A stretch of 23,062 nucleotides of DNA from a bacterium (lineage in GTDB: Bacteria; Krumholzibacteriota; Krumholzibacteriia; G020349025), in NCBI GenBank assembly GCA_031362565.1, contig JANLSU010000100.1, positions 1 to 23,062 on the forward strand. The letters are read 5' to 3'. A program made the position numbers and the translations under genes. This document shows, in pieces, positions 10,816 through 20,537 of the stretch (its first letter is position 1; every line of letters begins with the position of its first letter). A model generated the notes under the pieces. The model had not been told where the DNA came from. It saw only the letters and a program-made list of their open reading frames with translations, and made no database searches.

Positions 10816-12627
10816 TCAGCCGAGCCGCTTCTCGAGTGCGTCGAGTTCGTTGCGGAGCCCCGCCGGCAACTTGGCACCGAAGCGTTCGAAGTGCTGTCGA
10901 ATCGACGGCACTTCCTCTTTCCAAGCCACGGGATCGACCGACAAGAGCGCCTTCACCGCTTCGGCCGATAGATTGAGGCTCTTCAGGTCGAGCGCCTCCG
11001 GTGTCGGCAGCTTGCCGATCGGCGTGTCGACGGCTGCGGCCTTGCCGTCGCAACGTCCCGCGACCCAGGCCAACACCCGGCTGTTCTCGCCATAGCCCGG
11101 CCACAGGAACTTGCCGTCCGGGCCCTTGCGGAACCAGTTGACGAAGAAAATCTTCGGCATCTTGTCGCCGCCCTTTTCGCCCATCTTGAGCCAATGCGCG
11201 AAGTAGTCGCCCATGTTGTAACCGCAGAAGGGCAGCATCGCCATCGGATCACGCCGCAACTCGCCGATCTTGCCGGTCGCCGCCGCTGTCTGTTCCGACG
11301 CCATGATCGAACCCAGGAAAACACCGTGTTGCCACGACGTGGCCTCGGTCACGAGCGGCACGTTGGTCGCGCGCCGGCCGCCAAAGAGAATGGCGCTAAT
11401 CGGCACGCCCTTCGGGTCTTCCCATTCCTTGGCGATGACCGGACATTGCTTGGCCGGCACCGTGAAGCGCGAATTCGCATGCGCCGCCGGACGCCCGACC
11501 CCCGGATGCCACGGCCGGCGCAGCCAGTCGGTGACCGACTCGGGCTCGTGATCCAGCATCTGCTCCCAATAGACGTCGCCATCCTTGGTGAGCGCGACGT
11601 TGGTGAAGATAGAATTCGCATGCAGGCTGCGAAGCGCATTGCGATTGCTGAGATCGCTCGTGCCCGGAGCGACGCCGAAAAAACCCGCTTCGGGATTGAT
11701 GGCGTAGAGCCGGCCATCGGCGCCAAACTTCATCCAGGCGATGTCATCGCCCACCGTCTCTGCCTTCCAGCCCGGAATCGTCGGGATGAGCATCGCGAGG
11801 TTCGTCTTGCCGCAGGCCGACGGAAAGGCGCCGGCGATGTACTTCACGTCGCCCGCCGGGCTCGTCAGCTTCAAGATGAGCATGTGTTCCGCGAGCCAGC
11901 CCTCGTCGCGCGCCTGCACGGAGGCGATGCGCAACGCGTGGCACTTTTTCCCGAGGAGCGCATTGCCGCCGTAGCCCGAGCCATACGACCAGATTTCGCG
12001 TGTCTCGGGGAAATGCGTGATGTACTTGGTGGTCGCGTTGCACGGCCACGGCAAATCGGCCTGCTTGGGATCGCGGAGCGGATAGCCCACCGAATGCGAG
12101 CCACGCACGAAATCGGTGCTGTCGCCCAGCACCTCGAGGACGCGATGTCCGACCCGCGTCATGATGTGCATGTTGATGACGACGTACGGCGAATCCGACA
12201 CCATGACGCCGATTTTGGCGATCGGCGAACCGACCGGTCCCATGGAGTAGGGAATGACATACATCGTGCGGCCCTGCATCGTGCCGTCGAAGAGCTCGGC
12301 GAGTTTCGTCTTCATCTCGACGGGGTCGGCCCAGTTGTTCGTGGGGCCGGCGTCGTCGCGGTTCACGGAGCAGATGTAGGTCTTGTCCTCGACGCGCGCC
12401 ACGTCGGCCGGGTCGCTGCGGACGAGAATGCTGTGCGGGCGCTTCTTTTCGTCGAGGCGGATCGCGGTGCCCGCGTCGACGAGCATCTGCACCATTTCTT
12501 GGTATTCGGCCGGCGAACCATCACACCAGCGCACCCCGTCTGGACGCATCATGCGCGTCGCCGCGTCGACGAATGCGAGAACCTTGGCATTGGTAGTGGG
12601 AACGGATACGGCAGGCATGATTCCCAT
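10816..12627 (-). CDS. pckG: Phosphoenolpyruvate carboxykinase (GTP)
   Basis: [85 protein letters not shown]. Confidence 0.98.
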
Positions 12628-15311: not shown

Positions 15312-16334
15312 TCAATGCAGACTGGCTGTATACGGATCAGTCACCGCGAGCAAGCGGCCGTGCTCCGGGTCGCCGAAGTACACCTTTCCCCGGACCGCGA
15401 TGCAGTGCGAATCCTCGGTGGCCGGGAAGGTACCAAGCAACGAGAGCGCACCTTGCAACGAGACCCCAACCATGGCGAGGGTCTTGGTTTCGGCGCTCGG
15501 AACATACACGTGTCCCAGATCCGGATCGTACGCAATGATGTCGATGCCGCCGGCCAGGGCGATCTTGCTCAGCTGTTTTCCGGTCGTCACATCCACAGCG
15601 GTGAGACCGCCGGCCTCGCAGGCGACGAACAGCAAGCCGCGTTTCGCGTCCAGCGCGAGGCCGGAGGCGCCTTCGCAACCGTTCTTCCACGTGGCCACGA
15701 TCGCCCGCGTCCGCAGGTCGATGGCCACGGTCTTGGATTCGAGATTGGTGTAGGCGCGCCGGCGCCGCACATCGAGGACGAGCGATTCGGGGTCCCCGGG
15801 CAACGTGATTTTGGTGACGGCCTCGAGACGCGGCGGCTTGTCGGTGGTGAGCCGGAAGATCTCGATGCGCTGCGAGTCGGGCTCACTCACCCAAATCTCA
15901 CGCGCCGCGGCAAGCCAGCGCACGTAGTCCGGGCTGGCGCTGAGCGCCGTGTGGCCGACGATCGCTTTGGTCGCCGGATCGACGATGGAGAGTTGAAGCG
16001 CCGTGCGGTCGGTGGCGAAGAGCAGACCCTCGCCCTCGACGACCGACGTCACTCCATCCTCGTGACCGCCGGGGAAGTCGGCGCGAGCGGTGAACCCGGG
16101 GATCGACACGACCGAGCCGGTCTCGAGATCGACGAGATCGATCATTCCAGTGCGGCCCGCGGGCACGAGCAATTTCCCGAGCCTGGTCGAGTAGGCGAGA
16201 TCGTCGAATCCGATACCGGCTTCGCCGCCGGGCATCGCGATGGCGACTGGCGTGGGCGGCGCTTGGGCGGTGGTTCCGGCGGCGAGGGCGGGGCTCGTCG
16301 AGAAAAGGCAGAGCCCCAGAACTAAGAGTCGCAT
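15312..16334 (-). CDS. Secreted YncE/YVTN-like beta-propeller protein
   Basis: ATG 16334 with AAGGAG RBS; signal peptide; GIGFDDLAY, LSASPDYV, LPGDPESLVLD, GCEGASGLALDAKRGLLFVAC, GGIDIIAYDP. Confidence 0.8.
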   Translation of the reverse strand: MRLLVLGLCLFSTSPALAAGTTAQAPPTPVAIAMPGGEAGIGFDDLAYSTRLGKLLVPAGRTGMIDLVDLETGSVVSIPGFTARADFPGGHEDGVTSVVEGEGLLFATDRTALQLSIVDPATKAIVGHTALSASPDYVRWLAAAREIWVSEPDSQRIEIFRLTTDKPPRLEAVTKITLPGDPESLVLDVRRRRAYTNLESKTVAIDLRTRAIVATWKNGCEGASGLALDAKRGLLFVACEAGGLTAVDVTTGKQLSKIALAGGIDIIAYDPDLGHVYVPSAETKTLAMVGVSLQGALSLLGTFPATEDSHCIAVRGKVYFGDPEHGRLLAVTDPYTASLH

Positions 16335-16414
16335 CGGTGTACTCCTTGGTCTCGGCGCAGCCTGTTGGCGCGCGGCGAAAGAACGACGCACGCACATCGC
16401 CGCTGACGCGGCAC

Positions 16415-16443
16415 TTGTGGCACTCTGTACAGAACGCTAAATT
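16415..16443 (+). promoter_or_regulatory. Candidate sigma-70 promoter pointing into the structured gap
   Basis: TTGTGG (16415-16420), 17-nt spacer, TAAATT (16438-16443); divergent from the YncE-like gene. Confidence 0.4.
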
Positions 16444-16444
16444 G

Positions 16445-17365
16445 GGGCAACCACCCCACCGCGGGGCCCGCGGGCTCGCCGCATGCTACGGCGATGCCGT
16501 GGAGAAACGGAAAAAAAGGGAGGGTCGAACGCGAGTCGAGTCGGACCGGCATCGAACAGAGTTCCGTCACTGACGTTGCTCTGGCGAAGTTATCCGTGGT
16601 GACTGTAGCCTGCCCGTTCTTACCAGCCACCACGCCCACATCCGGTCTGCCCGTTCGCGCCGGCCCTCCCTCAATTCCATTTGTGCATTCGAGGTGGCGT
16701 GGTTCCATGCACGCGCACCGCATCGCTCACCGTTGCAAATGCAGGGTCCGAGCGCGATCAACACCGCGTCCTCTATTCCGAACGCGTCGTCCCGGTGAGA
16801 TACGAAGACCCGCCGCGAAGTGCTGAAGCCCCGGGTACCGACAGGGCGCAACGCGACGAATCACCGCACAAGGGACGAGGATGGAACGGCCGGAGCAGCC
16901 GCGTTTCACGCCTAGCCTCGAAACCGGTGCGGAGGGGGAATACCTGGGCACCGGAGCTCGAACCACCGTGAAACCACGGCCGAAGGCCGCGGCTCCCGCG
17001 CACGAACCCACACGACGAGGAAAGCGGTGCCGCGTCTCTCGGCCCTGGTTGGGGCGCGTGTCGGACGGCAACGGCGAAGATGGCGCCGCGACAATCGGCA
17101 ACCAACGAGCGTGCGAAACGGGATGGAGTTTCGGCACCGTCTTCCTCAAAGGTCTACCGCTCGCCGCGTACGTTCCCATTCAGGGGAGCGGCCTCTTTGG
17201 CCGCGAGAACGTTGTTCGAACGAGCGTCTGGTCGGTCTTTATCAGTCCGCCATATCGACCTTTGAGAGATGCCTGCGAAGCACGAACGGGCAGTCCGTGT
17301 AGGACAAGTCTAGTGGAGTCTGGTCCCGGCTGCAACTCGAAAAGTGCGTTTGCGGCGTCTTTTCT
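16445..17365 (+). ncRNA. Candidate large (~900 nt) structured non-coding RNA, family unassigned
   Basis: Nested helices found by eye: 16517-16549/16642-16671, 16787-16798/16861-16878, 16924-16930/16948-16954, 17017-17032/17132-17147, 17145-17154/17257-17266, plus long-range 16610-16619/17284-17293. No convincing ORF; A-rich linkers on the + strand. Ends are approximate. Confidence 0.6.
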
Positions 17366-17417
17366 GGCGCCCGGCGGCTCCACGCCCTTGGGTCCTGGAG
17401 CCCTTGCTCCCGCGCGC

Positions 17418-17446
17418 TTGCCGGGGTCTTGCCGGCGTGCTAACGT
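17418..17446 (+). promoter_or_regulatory. Sigma-70 promoter for the TPR operon
   Basis: TTGCCG (17418-17423), 17-nt spacer, extended -10 TGcTAACGT (17438-17446); GGAGG RBS before GTG 17488. Confidence 0.5.
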
Positions 17447-17487
17447 GGCGTGCTTCTCACTTGTGAACCAGGCTCGTACGGAGGTTC

Positions 17488-18177
17488 GTGGCTTTGGCAC
17501 CAGCGCAGCAACCGATCGGCCGCAAGGTCAAGGAAGATGAAGATCCCGTGATGACCTCGGTCCATCGCGGCCTGGATTACGTCACGACCCACATGAACAT
17601 CGTCCTGGGCGTGGCGGCGGGCATTGTCCTCATCGTGGTCATCGGCGTCCTGTGGTCGCGGGACCACGCTGCCCGGGCCGCGGCCGCCGACAGCAGCATC
17701 TCGGAGGTTGTACTGGGGTTTGCGGGCGGCAACTACCAGGCGACCTTGGATGCCGCCAATGCCGTCCAAGCGAGCCACCCCGGAACCGAGGCGGCGCGGA
17801 ACGCTAAGTACTTCGCCGGCGCCAGCCAGCTCCGCATGGGGCAGTTTCCGGAAGCCGAGCAGACGCTGCGTGCCTACCTCGCGGATACGGGCCCCAAGGG
17901 GTTCTACGAGCACGCCGCCCGTGCAGCGGTTGCGGCGAGCCTCGAGGGCCAGAGCAAGTTCGCGGACGCCGCGGCGATCTACCAAGAAGAAGCGAACGTG
18001 CTTCCCGAAGCACTCGCGAACGATGCGCGTCTCGACGCGGCTCGCGCCCTGCGGCTCGCAGGTTCCGTGGATCAAGCCAAGGGAATCCTGACCAAGTTGA
18101 GCGAATTGACCAATGCTCCCATGGTCGCGCGGCAGGCCAAGATCGAACTTGCGGTAATCGAAAGCGCGCATCCCTGA
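17488..18177 (+). CDS. YfgM-like membrane-anchored tetratricopeptide repeat protein
   Basis: N-terminal RKVKEDEDPV, single TM (IVLGVAAGIVLIVVIGVLW), HPGTEAARNAKYFAG, TPR helices. Confidence 0.8.
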   Translation: MALAPAQQPIGRKVKEDEDPVMTSVHRGLDYVTTHMNIVLGVAAGIVLIVVIGVLWSRDHAARAAAADSSISEVVLGFAGGNYQATLDAANAVQASHPGTEAARNAKYFAGASQLRMGQFPEAEQTLRAYLADTGPKGFYEHAARAAVAASLEGQSKFADAAAIYQEEANVLPEALANDARLDAARALRLAGSVDQAKGILTKLSELTNAPMVARQAKIELAVIESAHP

Positions 18178-18237
18178 CGCCGTACTCGCCGCATGGCGTC
18201 GCGGCCGCTCCGGACGCGCGCGGGAGACGAGCGCCGA

Positions 18238-18663
18238 ATGCTTCAAGCCCCGCACGATGACACGAACTCCGCGCCGCGCGAAGCGGGCGGTTCGGGCGAG
18301 CGCGCCGAGGATCCCAGCGATGTCTCGCGCTGGCTCGCGGCCCTGTCCTATGCATTCGTAGTGGCGATCTTCGTCGTCGTCGAAGCCCGCCGGCGCCCGC
18401 CGGATGAATTCCTGCGCTTCCATGCGCGCCAAGGCTTCCTGCTCTTCTTCGCGGAATTCGCGCTGCTCATCGTCTCGATGATTCTCAATCACACCGTCGG
18501 GCGGATCGAAGTCCTGGGCTTCGTGATCATGGTCACCTGGAACTTGGTGACCGGACTGCTGGCCGTCGGCGTTTCGGTGATGGGATTCATGTACGCGCTT
18601 TCCGGCGAGCGCTGGAAGCTGCCCCTGTTGGGCGACCATGCGGGGCGCGTGCCGCTGAAGTGA
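18238..18663 (+). CDS. DUF4870-like small membrane protein
   Basis: LAALSY...DEFLRFHARQGFLLF...ALSGERWKLPLLG, three TM segments. Start ATG 18238 (GGGAGA RBS) or 18193. Confidence 0.8.
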   Translation: MLQAPHDDTNSAPREAGGSGERAEDPSDVSRWLAALSYAFVVAIFVVVEARRRPPDEFLRFHARQGFLLFFAEFALLIVSMILNHTVGRIEVLGFVIMVTWNLVTGLLAVGVSVMGFMYALSGERWKLPLLGDHAGRVPLK

Positions 18664-19259: not shown

Positions 19260-19545
19260 GTGGCCGAGGCGCCGGACCAATCACTGGACTGACGTCGCAC
19301 GTTGACGCGTGCCACCGGGGAACCGAACGTCCGTTCGGTGGGTCCGGCCGGCGGTACGCTCCCGCGCTTCGCCCAGTACGGCGCGCGCCGCCTGGACCGG
19401 GCCCCGTCGATGCAGTCCTTTTTGCGCTGCGGCCACTCGCTGCAGTGTTTCCTCAGGACACACCCCCGTTCCGTACCCGGCCCGGGGCAATTCTCTAAGC
19501 CACATTGTTGCAACTGCTTGTGCTGTGACCGCTGGTTGCAGCAAA

Positions 19546-19561
19546 CGGCATGTTGTTCGCA
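19546..19561 (+). promoter_or_regulatory. Candidate sigma-54 (-24/-12) promoter
   Basis: CGGCATGTTGTTCGCA: GG at 19547-19548 and GC at 19559-19560 with exactly 10 nt between; AT-rich tract upstream. Confidence 0.45.
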
Positions 19562-19670
19562 ATGCATCTCCACTGATGGCGCCCCGCAACAGCTGCGGCC
19601 GCCCGGGGGAGAACCGCCGCGAGGTCCTACCGGTCGGATTCGAGCCCGGCATTGGAGGAGGTGGGTGACG

Positions 19671-20537
19671 ATGACAGCGACAACACCCCGAATGGCGGAG
19701 CGGGCTGCGTTTCCTGGTGACCTGGCGACACTGGCCCTGTACCAACGTGAAATCCAGCGCATTCCGGTTCTGTCTGCGAGCGACGAGCGGGCGCTCGGTG
19801 CGCGCGCGCAATGCGGCGACCGCACCGCGATCGATGCTCTCGTCCGGCACAACCTGCGCTTCGTGGTGATGGTCGCACGACGCTACACGCGCCATGGTAT
19901 TCCTCTCGAAGATCTGATTGATGAGGGGAACCTTGGCCTCATTCGTGCAGCGCAGCGCTTCGATCCGACGCGCGGCTTCCGGTTCGTGTCTTACGCCGTG
20001 TGGTGGATCCGCCAGTCCATTCTGCAGTGCCTGAGTGACAAGTCACGCATCGTGCGCTTGCCGGTGAGTCAGGTCCAACGGTTGTCGCGCCTCTCGCAGG
20101 CGAGCGATCGGTTGACCCAGGCCCTGGGACGCGATCCGACGGCGGACGAGCTGGGCAAGCGCCTGTGCATCGCCGCCGAGAAAGTCGATTGGCTGCGGAC
20201 GCTGCCGACGTTGGCGTTCTCGCTGGACGAACCGCGTGAAGGCGAGGAGACGGACTTCGAAATGGACACGCTCCAGGACCCGCGTGCGAGCAACCTCGAG
20301 GCTGCGGTGGCCGACAAGATCCGCGACGAGATGTTGGGGCGTTGCCTCGATCAGCTCGATGCACGCACTGCCGACGTCGTGCGCCGCTACTACGGCCTTG
20401 GCGGCACCATTCCGGAATCCCTCGAGGCGATTGGCAAGACCTACGGCATCACCCGCGAACGGGTTCGCCAGTTGCGGGACCGGGGCATTCACAAGCTGCG
20501 GACGGCGCCGGAGTGCGCGATGCTCGCTGAAGCGTGA
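19671..20537 (+). CDS. RNA polymerase sigma-70 factor, RpoD/RpoS-like without region 1.1
   Basis: GGAGGAGG RBS. Region 1.2 LYQREIQRIPVLS; region 2 HNLRFVVMVARRY and DLIDEGNLGLIRAAQRFDPTRGFRFVSYAVWWIRQSI; region 4 SLEAIGKTYGITRERVRQL. The ORF-track extension to 19302 is spurious. Confidence 0.93.
   Translation: MTATTPRMAERAAFPGDLATLALYQREIQRIPVLSASDERALGARAQCGDRTAIDALVRHNLRFVVMVARRYTRHGIPLEDLIDEGNLGLIRAAQRFDPTRGFRFVSYAVWWIRQSILQCLSDKSRIVRLPVSQVQRLSRLSQASDRLTQALGRDPTADELGKRLCIAAEKVDWLRTLPTLAFSLDEPREGEETDFEMDTLQDPRASNLEAAVADKIRDEMLGRCLDQLDARTADVVRRYYGLGGTIPESLEAIGKTYGITRERVRQLRDRGIHKLRTAPECAMLAEA

What the first reader, a model, noticed from the sequence alone, without database searches (positions are those of the whole stretch)
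16445..17365. Candidate ~900-nt ornate non-coding RNA filling an 'empty' intergenic region
Seen: the 1.15 kb between divergent genes (16334 and 17488) has no credible ORF but is tiled with nested, multi-branched helices. Domain 1 is a ~30-bp interrupted stem (AGGGAGGG 16517-16524/CCCTCCCT 16664-16671, continuing to GACCGG 16544-16549/CCGGTC 16642-16647) enclosing two hairpins (CAGAG 16557/CTCTG 16579; CGTGGTG 16595/CACCACG 16628). Other helices: GTGCAT 16683/ATGCAC 16707; TCGTCCC-GGTGA 16787-16798/TCACC...GGGACGA 16861-16878; CCGGTGC 16924/GCACCGG 16948; CCGTG 16966/CACGG 16975; GAGGAAAGCGGTGCCG 17017-17032/CGGCACCGTCTTCCTC 17132-17147 (15 of 16 pairs) enclosing more hairpins; CTCAAAGGTC 17145-17154/GACCTTTGAG 17257-17266; GAAAAG 17339/CTTTTC 17359. 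Linkers are A-rich on + (CGAA, GAAA), several helices use G-U on +, and a TTGTGG-N17-TAAATT promoter points into the region. The next gene has its own promoter, so this is probably not just a UTR. Established: bacteria encode rare large ornate RNAs (GOLLD, ROOL, OLE, MISL, HEARO). I see no hallmark motifs of RNase P, tmRNA, SRP or group I/II introns. Inference: a standalone large ncRNA, possibly a new class.
Basis: partly seen in the sequence, partly recalled or inferred. Interest (0 to 1): 0.88.

Follow-up and report, generated by a model that had tools for sequence, protein, structure and literature searches.

The report
New 0.8-kb structured RNA, minus strand

Summary
The 1.15-kb gap is non-coding and holds a real, conserved, structured RNA gene. 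It lies on the MINUS strand, about window 17300 to 16510 (~790 nt).

Evidence:
- A sigma-70-type promoter (TTGCNN-17 nt-TANNNT) sits at the same place on the minus strand in 10 of 10 homologous loci.
- The full-length consensus has 104 pairs. 91% of cells are paired, against 37-44% when partners are slid. 39 pairs carry compensatory changes, against 10-19.
- G-U pairs number 160 on the minus strand against 28 on the plus strand.
- Three relatives have a hairpin-plus-U terminator on the minus strand.
- Substitutions show no codon periodicity.
- Soil metatranscriptome contigs cover the element but not the flanking genes.
- The RNA's 5' end pairs with the invariant loop of a 3' hairpin.
- None of 4227 Rfam families matches. 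The genome has its own RNase P, tmRNA, 6S and SRP RNAs elsewhere.

The RNA was found only in one family of Candidatus Krumholzibacteriia (4 of 208 class genomes) and in 10 metagenome contigs. It always lies divergent from a gene pair for a membrane-anchored TPR protein and a Tic20-like membrane protein.

Function is unknown. My best guess (~25%) is an OLE-like RNA-protein particle built with those membrane proteins.

The parts
16510..17300 (-). The ncRNA gene (~790 nt). The predicted 5' end is near 17300-17298. The predicted 3' end lies after the U7 run at 16516-16510. Neither end has been mapped.
   Evidence: Promoter position. Full-length covariation. RNA contigs reach 17291 and 17260 on the right. 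No Rfam hit.
17330..17335 (-). -35 hexamer of the RNA's promoter (TTGCAG on the minus strand).
   Evidence: TTGCNN-17 nt-TANNNT lies at the same aligned place in 10 of 10 loci, with a free-varying spacer.
17307..17312 (-). -10 hexamer of the RNA's promoter (TAGACT on the minus strand), with a 17-nt spacer at 17313-17329.
17284..17293 (-). 5'-terminal strand CUGCCCGUUC, which pairs with the loop of the 3' hairpin (long-range pseudoknot).
   Evidence: Best duplex partner of the loop anywhere in the RNA in 9 of 11 RNAs. In 8 of those it scores -23 to -26 kcal/mol, against -15 to -19 for the next best. G002 has a compensatory C>U / G>A change.
17144..17267 (-). 5' domain. It is closed by helix UCUCAAAG/CUUUGAGG (17260-17267 with 17144-17151) and holds the conserved hairpin AUGGCGGACUG..AGACCGACCA (17229-17252).
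   Evidence: Helices 1-4; coordinates.
17017..17147 (-). Second domain, closed by GAGGAAGACGGUGCCG/CGGCACCGCUUUCCUC. Its interior varies between lineages.
   Evidence: Helix at columns 215-222/374-381 of my MAFFT alignment, with 2 pairs carrying double changes.
16743..17009 (-). Central domain: a multi-helix junction with conserved strands GUGGGUUCG..GC.GGAGCCG, CCGUUCCAUCC and CCGGGC..ACG.
   Evidence: 51 pairs, 90.6% of cells paired against 37-48% when slid, 24 pairs with double changes against 4-10, 0 of 500 shuffles as high. G-U 71 against A-C 9.
16672..16742 (-). Variable linker, with lineage-specific hairpins.
   Evidence: Not alignable between clades.
16521..16667 (-). 3' domain: P1 (16659-16667 with 16521-16529), P2 (16644-16647 with 16544-16547), a variable hairpin, and the invariant hairpin 16595-16634.
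   Evidence: Covariance model R1 scores 137-162 bits in the four genomes.
16606..16623 (-). 18-nt loop GUAAGAACGGGCAGGCUA, with the core AACGGGCAGGCUA nearly invariant. It is the partner of the RNA's 5' end.
16510..16516 (-). U7 run directly after P1. It is a possible terminator tract.
   Evidence: Sequence. G004, L020 and L025 instead carry a separate GC hairpin plus U run about 25 nt after P1 on the minus strand. The tool's terminator scan found none in G000.
17418..17446 (+). Separate conserved promoter of the divergent TPR gene (TTGCCG-17-TAACGT, with TG before the -10).
17488..18177 (+). Gene for a membrane-anchored TPR-like protein, always next to the RNA.
   Evidence: Weak Pfam TPR_21/TPR_19 hits, below cut-off. 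Present in 10 of 10 loci that extend far enough.
18193..18663 (+). Gene for a small Tic20-like membrane protein with the conserved basic loop RRxDFVRFHARQGF.

Best explanation
SHOWN OR STRONGLY SUPPORTED
- The gap encodes a standalone, highly structured non-coding RNA of about 790 nt on the minus strand.
- It is transcribed from its own sigma-70-type promoter (-35 at 17335-17330, -10 at 17312-17307).
- It runs leftwards through four folded domains and ends just after the long-range stem P1, at the U run 16516-16510.
- Its 5' end base-pairs with the invariant loop of a hairpin in the 3' domain, so the two ends are tied together.

INFERRED
- The RNA acts as a folded particle rather than as an antisense or leader RNA.
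- It most likely acts as the RNA part of a ribonucleoprotein with the two membrane proteins encoded divergently next door, a TM-anchored TPR protein and a Tic20-like protein. This would parallel the way OLE RNA works with OapA.
- I put about 25% on that specific function.

The confidence given below is for the 'real standalone structured minus-strand ncRNA' part.
For: 1. Conservation. Multi-block similarity over ~800 nt in 4 genomes and 10 of 15 metagenome loci. The RNA region differs less between G000 and L018 (71 of 795 positions) than the TPR gene does (102 of 687).
2. Non-coding. No GC3 periodicity, no Pfam hits, and substitution phases 25/27/19 against 20/13/69 in the gene control.
3. Structure. 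Full-length consensus of 104 pairs: 91.1% of cells paired against 37.1-44.4% with slid partners; 39 pairs with changes on both sides against 10-19; 0 of 500 shuffles reach the observed values. The central domain alone gives 90.6% against 37-48%, and 24 against 4-10.
4. Strand.
   - Minus-strand promoter in 10 of 10 loci with exactly 17-nt spacers.
   - G-U 160 against A-C 28 cells. In pairs predicted on both strands, 73 against 34.
   - Invariant G-U pairs.
   - MFE z-score -3.75 on minus against -1.79 on plus. RNAalifold energy -264.8 against -220.5.
   - Hairpin plus U run after P1 on minus in G004, L020 and L025.
5. Standalone. The left-hand neighbour is not conserved. In G002, G004, L020 and L021 the best coding frame there is convergent with the RNA.
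6. Expression. Metatranscriptome contigs cover 16746-17260 and 16792-17291 (one study) and 16741-16903 (a second study) at 97.6-98.8% identity (2-12 differences). They give no cover of 15800-16470, and none of 17312-18300 apart from a 38-nt piece at 17612-17649, while the DNA run covers everything.
7. Link to the neighbours. TPR homologue in 10 of 10 and Tic20-like in 6 of 6 loci that extend far enough. Within the family, the RNA and both genes were found in G000, G001, G002 and G004, and none of the three in G003, G005 or G006.
Against: - No strand-specific reads were available. Contigs cannot show strand, start or end, and an RNA library can contain DNA.
- The promoter does not pass the tool's stricter consensus scan, and no terminator was called in G000.
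- Only about seven independent lineages exist, all within one family. The shuffle control can be inflated by relatedness, as the tool itself notes.
- The G-U count was made on a structure predicted on the minus strand.
- The 5'-loop pairing is only a 7-bp core in L029, L019 and L021, and is not clearly the best partner there.
- The functional link to the membrane proteins rests on gene neighbourhood and on 7 related genomes. No binding evidence exists. The genes are divergent, not co-transcribed, and each has its own promoter.
- Absence in G003, G005 and G006 was tested with single queries in genomes that are 86-97% complete.
Confidence: 0.85

Rival explanations
1. One reading: the RNA is on the plus strand. 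It starts at the TTGTGG-N17-TAAATT promoter (16415-16443) and runs toward the TPR gene.
For: The promoter-like site is present in G000 and L018. The plus strand is A-rich in 16750-17050, with AT skew +0.35. Helices are strand-symmetric, so most of them also form on plus.
Against: That promoter is absent from the other 8 of 10 loci. G-U against A-C is 28 to 160 against plus. Invariant G-U pairs would become A-C mismatches. The plus-strand z-score is only -1.79. Terminator-like hairpins carry their U run on minus.
Confidence: 0.04
2. It is a folded RNA that works without the neighbouring proteins. It could be an RNA-only multimeric assembly like ROOL or GOLLD, or a ribozyme.
For: Its size and ornate multi-domain fold have highly conserved junction strands. 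The ends are tied by a pseudoknot. GOLLD, ROOL and OLE form homo-oligomers (abstract of PMC12286853 in the listing).
Against: No similarity to those families. No phage or tRNA association. No self-complementary kissing motif was sought or found. Nothing here bears on catalysis.
Confidence: 0.15
3. It is a regulator of the divergent TPR/Tic20-like operon. It would act through divergent-promoter interference, or as a trans-acting RNA or decoy for a factor controlling that operon.
For: The divergent arrangement is strictly conserved, 0.1-0.6 kb from the TPR promoter. The RNA and the operon occur together.
Against: About 800 nt of covarying multi-domain structure is far more than such regulation needs. 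The two promoters do not overlap. I did not search for complementarity to the TPR mRNA.
Confidence: 0.12
4. It is a long 5' leader or riboswitch-like cis element of the gene downstream on the minus strand (the 340-aa secreted beta-propeller gene, 15312-16334).
For: In G000 and L018 that gene follows on the same strand, about 175 nt after the RNA.
Against: That gene is next to the element in only 2 loci, G000 and L018. In G002, G004, L020 and L021 the neighbour is convergent. Terminators follow the RNA. RNA contigs do not extend into the gene.
Confidence: 0.03
5. It is not an RNA at all. It would be a conserved DNA-level element or a decayed protein gene.
For: None beyond the sequence conservation.
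Against: Compensatory changes keep the helices. There is no codon-phase signal. Indels are not multiples of three. Metatranscriptome contigs cover the element.
Confidence: 0.02

Closest known systems
OLE (ornate, large, extremophilic) RNA with its membrane protein OapA
   Same: Both are large (~600 nt against ~790 nt) multi-domain ncRNAs with highly conserved strands and unknown biochemistry. Both are encoded directly beside a gene for a small multi-pass membrane protein. OapA has four predicted TM helices and a conserved basic cluster, and it binds OLE RNA and brings it to the membrane (passages of PMC12265935; abstracts of PMC9723947 and PMC10898510 in the listing). The Tic20-like neighbour here has a conserved basic loop RRxDFVRFHARQGF.
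   Different: No sequence or structure match to any Rfam model. The host is Krumholzibacteriia, not Bacillota. The neighbouring genes are divergent, not downstream in one operon. They encode a TPR protein and a Tic20-like protein, with no Pfam hit other than weak TPR/TIC20/DUF998 ones. Binding and membrane localisation are untested.
GOLLD and ROOL RNAs
   Same: Both are very large ornate bacterial ncRNAs of unknown function, known mostly from metagenomes. GOLLD is of similar length (about 800 nt, recalled).
   Different: No model match. No tRNA beside the element and no match in viral contigs, whereas phage and tRNA association of GOLLD and ROOL is recalled from the literature. Their homo-oligomeric cages (abstract of PMC12286853, listing) could not be tested here.
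raiA motif RNA
   Same: Both are abundant, structured ncRNAs with their own promoter and unknown function (abstracts of PMC12968392, PMC10861870 and PMC11706538 in the listings).
   Different: raiA is much smaller (about 200 nt, recalled) and is found in >2500-2700 species of other phyla. There is no model match here.
Housekeeping structured RNAs (RNase P, tmRNA, 6S, SRP RNA)
   Same: All have multi-domain folds with long-range helices and pseudoknots.
   Different: The genome has canonical copies elsewhere: RNase P on C83 (313.6 bits), tmRNA on C75 (177.5), 6S on C15 (71.4) and SRP on C24 (77.1). None of these models matches the locus.

Membership tests
Any Rfam 15 family (4227 covariance models, including OLE, GOLLD, ROOL, HEARO, raiA, group I/II introns and riboswitches) | Match to the family's covariance model at or near its gathering score | tested here: not met
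   0 matches at gathering score in the whole window. At E<=10 in 16250-17600 there were only Ms_AS-4 (24.1 bits against a cut-off of 50) and chrB-b (15.8 against 36.5), both chance-level. 0 matches at E<=0.1 in 9 homologous loci totalling 42,331 bases.
OLE RNP | Adjacent oapA gene (four-TM protein whose TM region is CNNM-like, per PMC12265935) | tested here: not met
   Pfam scan of the neighbours gave only weak TPR_19/TPR_21 and TIC20/DUF998 hits, and NCBIfam gave nothing for the Tic20-like protein. A different small membrane protein is present instead.
OLE RNP | RNA bound by the membrane protein and localised to the membrane | not testable with these tools
   Needs a pull-down or imaging experiment.
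GOLLD / ROOL | Association with phage or prophage DNA and with tRNA genes (recalled) | tested here: not met
   ARAGORN found 0 genes in 16200-17600. The core pattern gave 0 matches in viral contigs. The locus is syntenic in chromosomal contigs.
GOLLD / ROOL | Homo-oligomeric RNA-only assembly | not testable with these tools
   Needs native gels or cryo-EM.
RNase P / tmRNA / 6S / SRP RNA | Being the genome's copy of that RNA | tested here: not met
   Canonical copies over cut-off lie elsewhere in G000.
Riboswitch or 5' leader | Lies in the 5' UTR of a conserved downstream gene on the same strand | tested here: not met
   The downstream gene on the RNA's strand is shared only by G000 and L018. 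The neighbour is convergent in G002, G004, L020 and L021. A terminator follows the RNA in G004, L020 and L025.
Independent ncRNA gene | Own promoter | tested here: met
   TTGCNN-17-TANNNT on minus at the same aligned place in 10 of 10 loci. It does not pass the stricter consensus scan.
Independent ncRNA gene | Conserved secondary structure supported by compensatory changes | tested here: met
Independent ncRNA gene | Transcript detected, with strand and ends | tested here: inconclusive
   RNA-library contigs cover the element and not its flanks. Contigs give no strand or true ends.

The most novel reading that the evidence does not exclude
A new class of ~0.8-kb ornate bacterial RNA from the little-known phylum Krumholzibacteriota. 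It would be the RNA core of a membrane-associated particle built with a TM-anchored TPR protein and a Tic20-like protein. That would make it a second, independent case after OLE of a giant RNA working at the membrane, or else a new natural ribozyme or RNA-only assembly.
Probability: 0.25. Interest if true: 0.9.

Novelty: categorically new. Interest (0 to 1): 0.8.

Why it matters
Large, highly structured bacterial RNAs outside the translation and processing machinery are very rare; OLE, GOLLD, ROOL, HEARO and raiA are the main examples. Each has opened new biology, such as membrane RNPs and RNA cages.

This candidate is as long as GOLLD. It has strong covariation, a mapped promoter, metatranscriptome cover and a fixed pair of membrane-protein neighbours. 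A concrete experiment is therefore possible: co-express the RNA with the two proteins, then test binding, localisation and structure.

It also shows that uncultured phyla still hide whole RNA classes that Rfam-based annotation leaves as empty intergenic DNA.

Tried and rejected
- Rfam at gathering score and at E<=10: nothing real.
- tRNA/tmRNA scan: none.
- Viral contigs: none.
- Consensus promoter/terminator scan on G000: 0 and 0. The promoter call therefore rests on conservation, not on consensus strength.
- Metagenome pattern scan: 15 loci. Five of them (L016, L017, L022, L023, L028) do not align outside the pattern and were dropped as chance matches. L027 repeats L019 and L030 repeats L024, so they were not counted as separate sequences.
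- Model R1 over 151 class genomes and 151 phylum genomes: the only extra hit, G116 (31 bits), lies in a stretch with GC3 of 0.94 and no synteny, so it is a false positive.
- A two-block pattern search was mistyped by me and missed even G000. It says nothing.
- The corrected one-block search gave exact matches in G000, G001, G002, G004 and one other genome. One-mismatch hits elsewhere were about as frequent as the reversed-pattern control, that is chance level.
- The 30-nt match in G006 (L005) was not examined further. R1 and both protein queries found nothing in G006.
I used strand folding on G000 only.
- The adapter remnant at the left end of RNA contig X4 (16792) could hint at strand, but the library's strandedness is unknown, so it was not used.
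- Parts of the element without RNA cover (16641-16740 and left of 16542) are not interpreted.
- Searches of this scan's earlier findings returned nothing.
- Literature searches: 'Krumholzibacteria' + 'noncoding RNA' gave 0 papers. Two broader searches on large or ornate bacterial RNAs listed nothing on this RNA.
- Three align_proteins calls failed on stop codons in my coordinates. The alignment was made in a script instead.

Full report
WHAT IS THERE

The window is contig C9 of a 5.4-Mb metagenome-assembled genome. Its relatives are labelled Candidatus Krumholzibacteriia (record titles). The 1.15 kb between the minus-strand gene ending at 16334 and the plus-strand gene starting at 17488 is non-coding.
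- It lacks the strong third-position GC bias of both flanks.
- None of its five ORFs that were scanned hits Pfam.
- Differences between G000 and its 88%-identical relative L018 fall evenly over codon phases (25/27/19). In the adjacent TPR gene they pile up at one phase (20/13/69).
- No Rfam family matches, at gathering score in the whole window or at E<=10 in the region.

HOMOLOGUES

- A DNA search of 60 relatives found a 55-64-nt core (window 16586-16649, 89-91% identical) in three genomes of the same family: G001, G002 and G004.
- A pattern from that core found the same three genomes among 185,579 species genomes.
- The same pattern found 15 metagenome contigs. Ten are true homologues (L018-L021, L024-L027, L029, L030). 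Five (L016, L017, L022, L023, L028) match only the pattern.
- Aligning the whole intergenic regions shows many conserved blocks spread over ~800 nt, separated by variable stretches with indels that are not multiples of three.
- Every locus that extends far enough has, on the right, a homologue of the TPR gene (10 of 10), followed by a Tic20-like membrane-protein gene (6 of 6). Genes further right and the gene on the left are not conserved.

STRAND AND ENDS

Searching both strands of 10 loci for TTGNNN-N16-18-TANNNT gave two positionally conserved sites in each.
- One is the TPR gene's own promoter on the plus strand. In G000 it is TTGCCG-17-TAACGT at 17418-17446.
- The other is on the MINUS strand, with a 17-nt spacer every time and with hexamers conserved while the spacer varies freely. 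In G000 it is -35 TTGCAG at 17335-17330 and -10 TAGACT at 17312-17307, which predicts a start near 17300.

Other strand evidence agrees.
- G000 folds better on minus (MFE -369.4, z -3.75) than on plus (-341, z -1.79).
- The consensus fold of 11 sequences is -264.8 on minus against -220.5 on plus.
- In pairs predicted on both strands, G-U pairs are 73 on minus and 34 on plus.
- On the tool-made full-length consensus they are 160 against 28. Several G-U pairs are invariant.
- In G004, L020 and L025 a GC hairpin followed by a U run lies about 25 nt after the last helix on the minus strand. G000 has U7 (16516-16510) directly after that helix.
- In G002, G004, L020 and L021 the gene to the left is convergent with the RNA, so the RNA is not a leader.

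I therefore place the gene at about 17300 to 16510 on the minus strand, ~790 nt. The ends have not been mapped.

STRUCTURE

- RNAalifold on the tool's alignment of 11 full-length sequences predicts 104 pairs in 18 helices.
- 91.1% of 1142 cells are standard pairs, against 37.1-44.4% when the 3' partners are slid by 1-3 columns.
- 39 pairs show changes on both sides, against 10-19 in the slid controls.
- None of 500 column shuffles reaches the observed values.
- The central domain alone (window 16743-17009) gives 90.6% against 37-48%, and 24 against 4-10.
- Caveats: the sequences represent about seven lineages of one family, and the consensus was derived from these same sequences. The shuffle control in particular overstates the case, but the slid controls and the number of double changes are clear.

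The RNA has these parts (coordinates):
- a 5' strand (17293-17284);
- a 5' domain closed by UCUCAAAG/CUUUGAGG;
- a second domain closed by GAGGAAGACGGUGCCG/CGGCACCGCUUUCCUC;
- a central multi-helix domain;
- a variable linker;
- a 3' domain (P1, P2, a variable hairpin, and an invariant 11-bp hairpin with an 18-nt loop).

The loop (GAACGGGCAG in G000) is complementary to the 5' strand (CUGCCCGUUC).
- In 9 of 11 RNAs the 5' end is the best duplex partner of the loop anywhere in the molecule. In 8 of those the duplex scores -23 to -26 kcal/mol, against -15 to -19 for the runner-up.
- G002 carries a compensatory C>U / G>A change.
- In L029, L019 and L021 only a 7-bp core remains.

EXPRESSION

- Of 20 public runs sharing words with the stretch, three are RNA libraries from two studies.
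- Their contigs, laid on 15800-18300, cover 16746-17260 (10 differences), 16792-17291 (12 differences) and 16741-16903 (2 differences). A 99-nt piece covers 16542-16640 at depth 131.
- They give no cover of the left flanking gene, and on the right only a 38-nt piece at 17612-17649, while the DNA run covers everything evenly.
- This fits an RNA much more abundant than its neighbours' mRNAs, with a right-hand limit just inside the predicted start.
- Contigs cannot give strand or true ends, and RNA libraries can hold DNA, so this is supportive rather than decisive.

WHAT IT IS NOT

- G000 has canonical RNase P, tmRNA, 6S and SRP RNAs on other contigs.
- ARAGORN finds nothing in the region.
- The core pattern is absent from viral contigs.
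- Nine homologous loci give no Rfam match at E<=0.1.
- Literature searches for Krumholzibacteria with noncoding RNA (0 papers) and for new large or ornate bacterial RNAs (listings and abstracts only) turned up nothing on it.

DISTRIBUTION

- A covariance model of the 3' domain (R1) found the RNA in G000, G001, G002 and G004 only, among 151 class genomes and 151 phylum genomes. One further hit (G116) lies inside a coding region and is false.
- A conserved central-domain motif gave exact matches in the same four genomes plus one other, and otherwise hits at the rate of the reversed control, among 208 class genomes.
- Within the family, G003, G005 and G006 (86-97% complete) gave no match for the RNA (apart from one unexamined 30-nt DNA match in G006), the TPR protein or the Tic20-like protein. 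The four RNA-bearing genomes have all three.
- This is a small, related sample tested with single queries, so it is a hint of joint presence and not a proof.

HOW IT MOST LIKELY WORKS

Shown or strongly supported: an independent, promoter-driven, highly structured ~0.8-kb RNA with its ends tied together.

Inferred: it acts as a folded particle. The only functional lead is the fixed divergent neighbourhood.
- One neighbour is a protein with an N-terminal TM helix and a TPR-like domain (weak PF09976/PF14559 hits).
- The other is a small Tic20-like membrane protein with a conserved basic loop, RRxDFVRFHARQGF.
- OLE RNA is the precedent for a large RNA whose neighbouring gene encodes a small membrane protein with a basic cluster that binds it and takes it to the membrane (passages of PMC12265935).
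- I therefore favour an OLE-like ribonucleoprotein (~25%). Next come an RNA-only assembly or ribozyme (~15%) and a regulator of the divergent operon (~12%). The rest is unknown.

It is not a member of the OLE, GOLLD or ROOL families, because their models do not match.

VERDICT

It read the RNA on the wrong strand, with the wrong promoter and the wrong ends.

Noticed in passing
L008:6600-6795, L006:3285-3495, L024:1620-1800, L026:1670-1870 (also in G004 and L020); absent from the window: In the six 'long-form' loci, a second conserved element lies between the RNA's promoter and the TPR promoter: GCGGGCCCGG..GGUAGGGGGGACAACCUUCCGC..GGAGGUGUCGC..CGGGCCCGCC, ~170-190 nt, followed by further conserved blocks. 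Its invariant G-U pairs favour the plus strand. It has no Rfam match and no BLAST match in G000. It may be a second, divergent ncRNA.
   Followed up: partly
window 17418-17446: The TPR gene's promoter (TTGNNN-17-TGNTANNGT, an extended -10) is conserved in all 10 loci. A conserved GTCAAG block lies 35-60 nt upstream of it in the long-form loci.
   Followed up: partly
window 16542-16640 (RNA run X2, record 7): A 419-nt metatranscriptome contig at depth 131 matches 99 nt of the 3' domain with 3 differences. It then runs on for 320 nt into sequence unlike the window, left of 16542. It could be a variant locus, a chimeric assembly or a processed or ligated form. This is unexplained.
   Followed up: no
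window 16741-16746: RNA contigs from two different studies begin at 16741 and 16746 with no loose end. This is the border between the central domain and the variable linker. It is a weak hint of a processing site, or simply of divergence or a coverage drop.
   Followed up: no
window 16415-16443: A plus-strand promoter-like site, TTGTGG-17-TAAATT, is shared only by G000 and L018. If active it would give an RNA antisense to the ncRNA's 3' domain.
   Followed up: partly
window 18193-18663 and homologues: The Tic20-like protein (about 3 hydrophobic segments by eye) has an invariant SRWLAA..SY start to its first TM segment. It also has a conserved basic loop, RRxDFVRFHARQGF, reminiscent of the basic cluster described for OapA.
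   Followed up: partly
window 17011-16996 (minus strand): The conserved strand GUGGGUUCGAAUGCCGGAGCCG (GUGGGUUCGUGCGCGG in G000) resembles a tRNA T-arm/T-loop sequence. The resemblance is recalled, and ARAGORN calls no tRNA there.
   Followed up: no
L005 (G006:C105:43181-43210): A 30-nt, 93%-identical match to window 16975-17004 occurs in a family member that otherwise lacks the RNA and both neighbouring genes. It was not examined.
   Followed up: no
window 10816-12627 (-), 19302-20537 (+), 15312-16334 (-): Ordinary neighbours: a GTP-dependent PEP carboxykinase, a group-1/2-like sigma-70 factor (best NCBIfam hits RpoS/RpoD, below cut-off), and a secreted YncE-like beta-propeller protein.
   Followed up: partly
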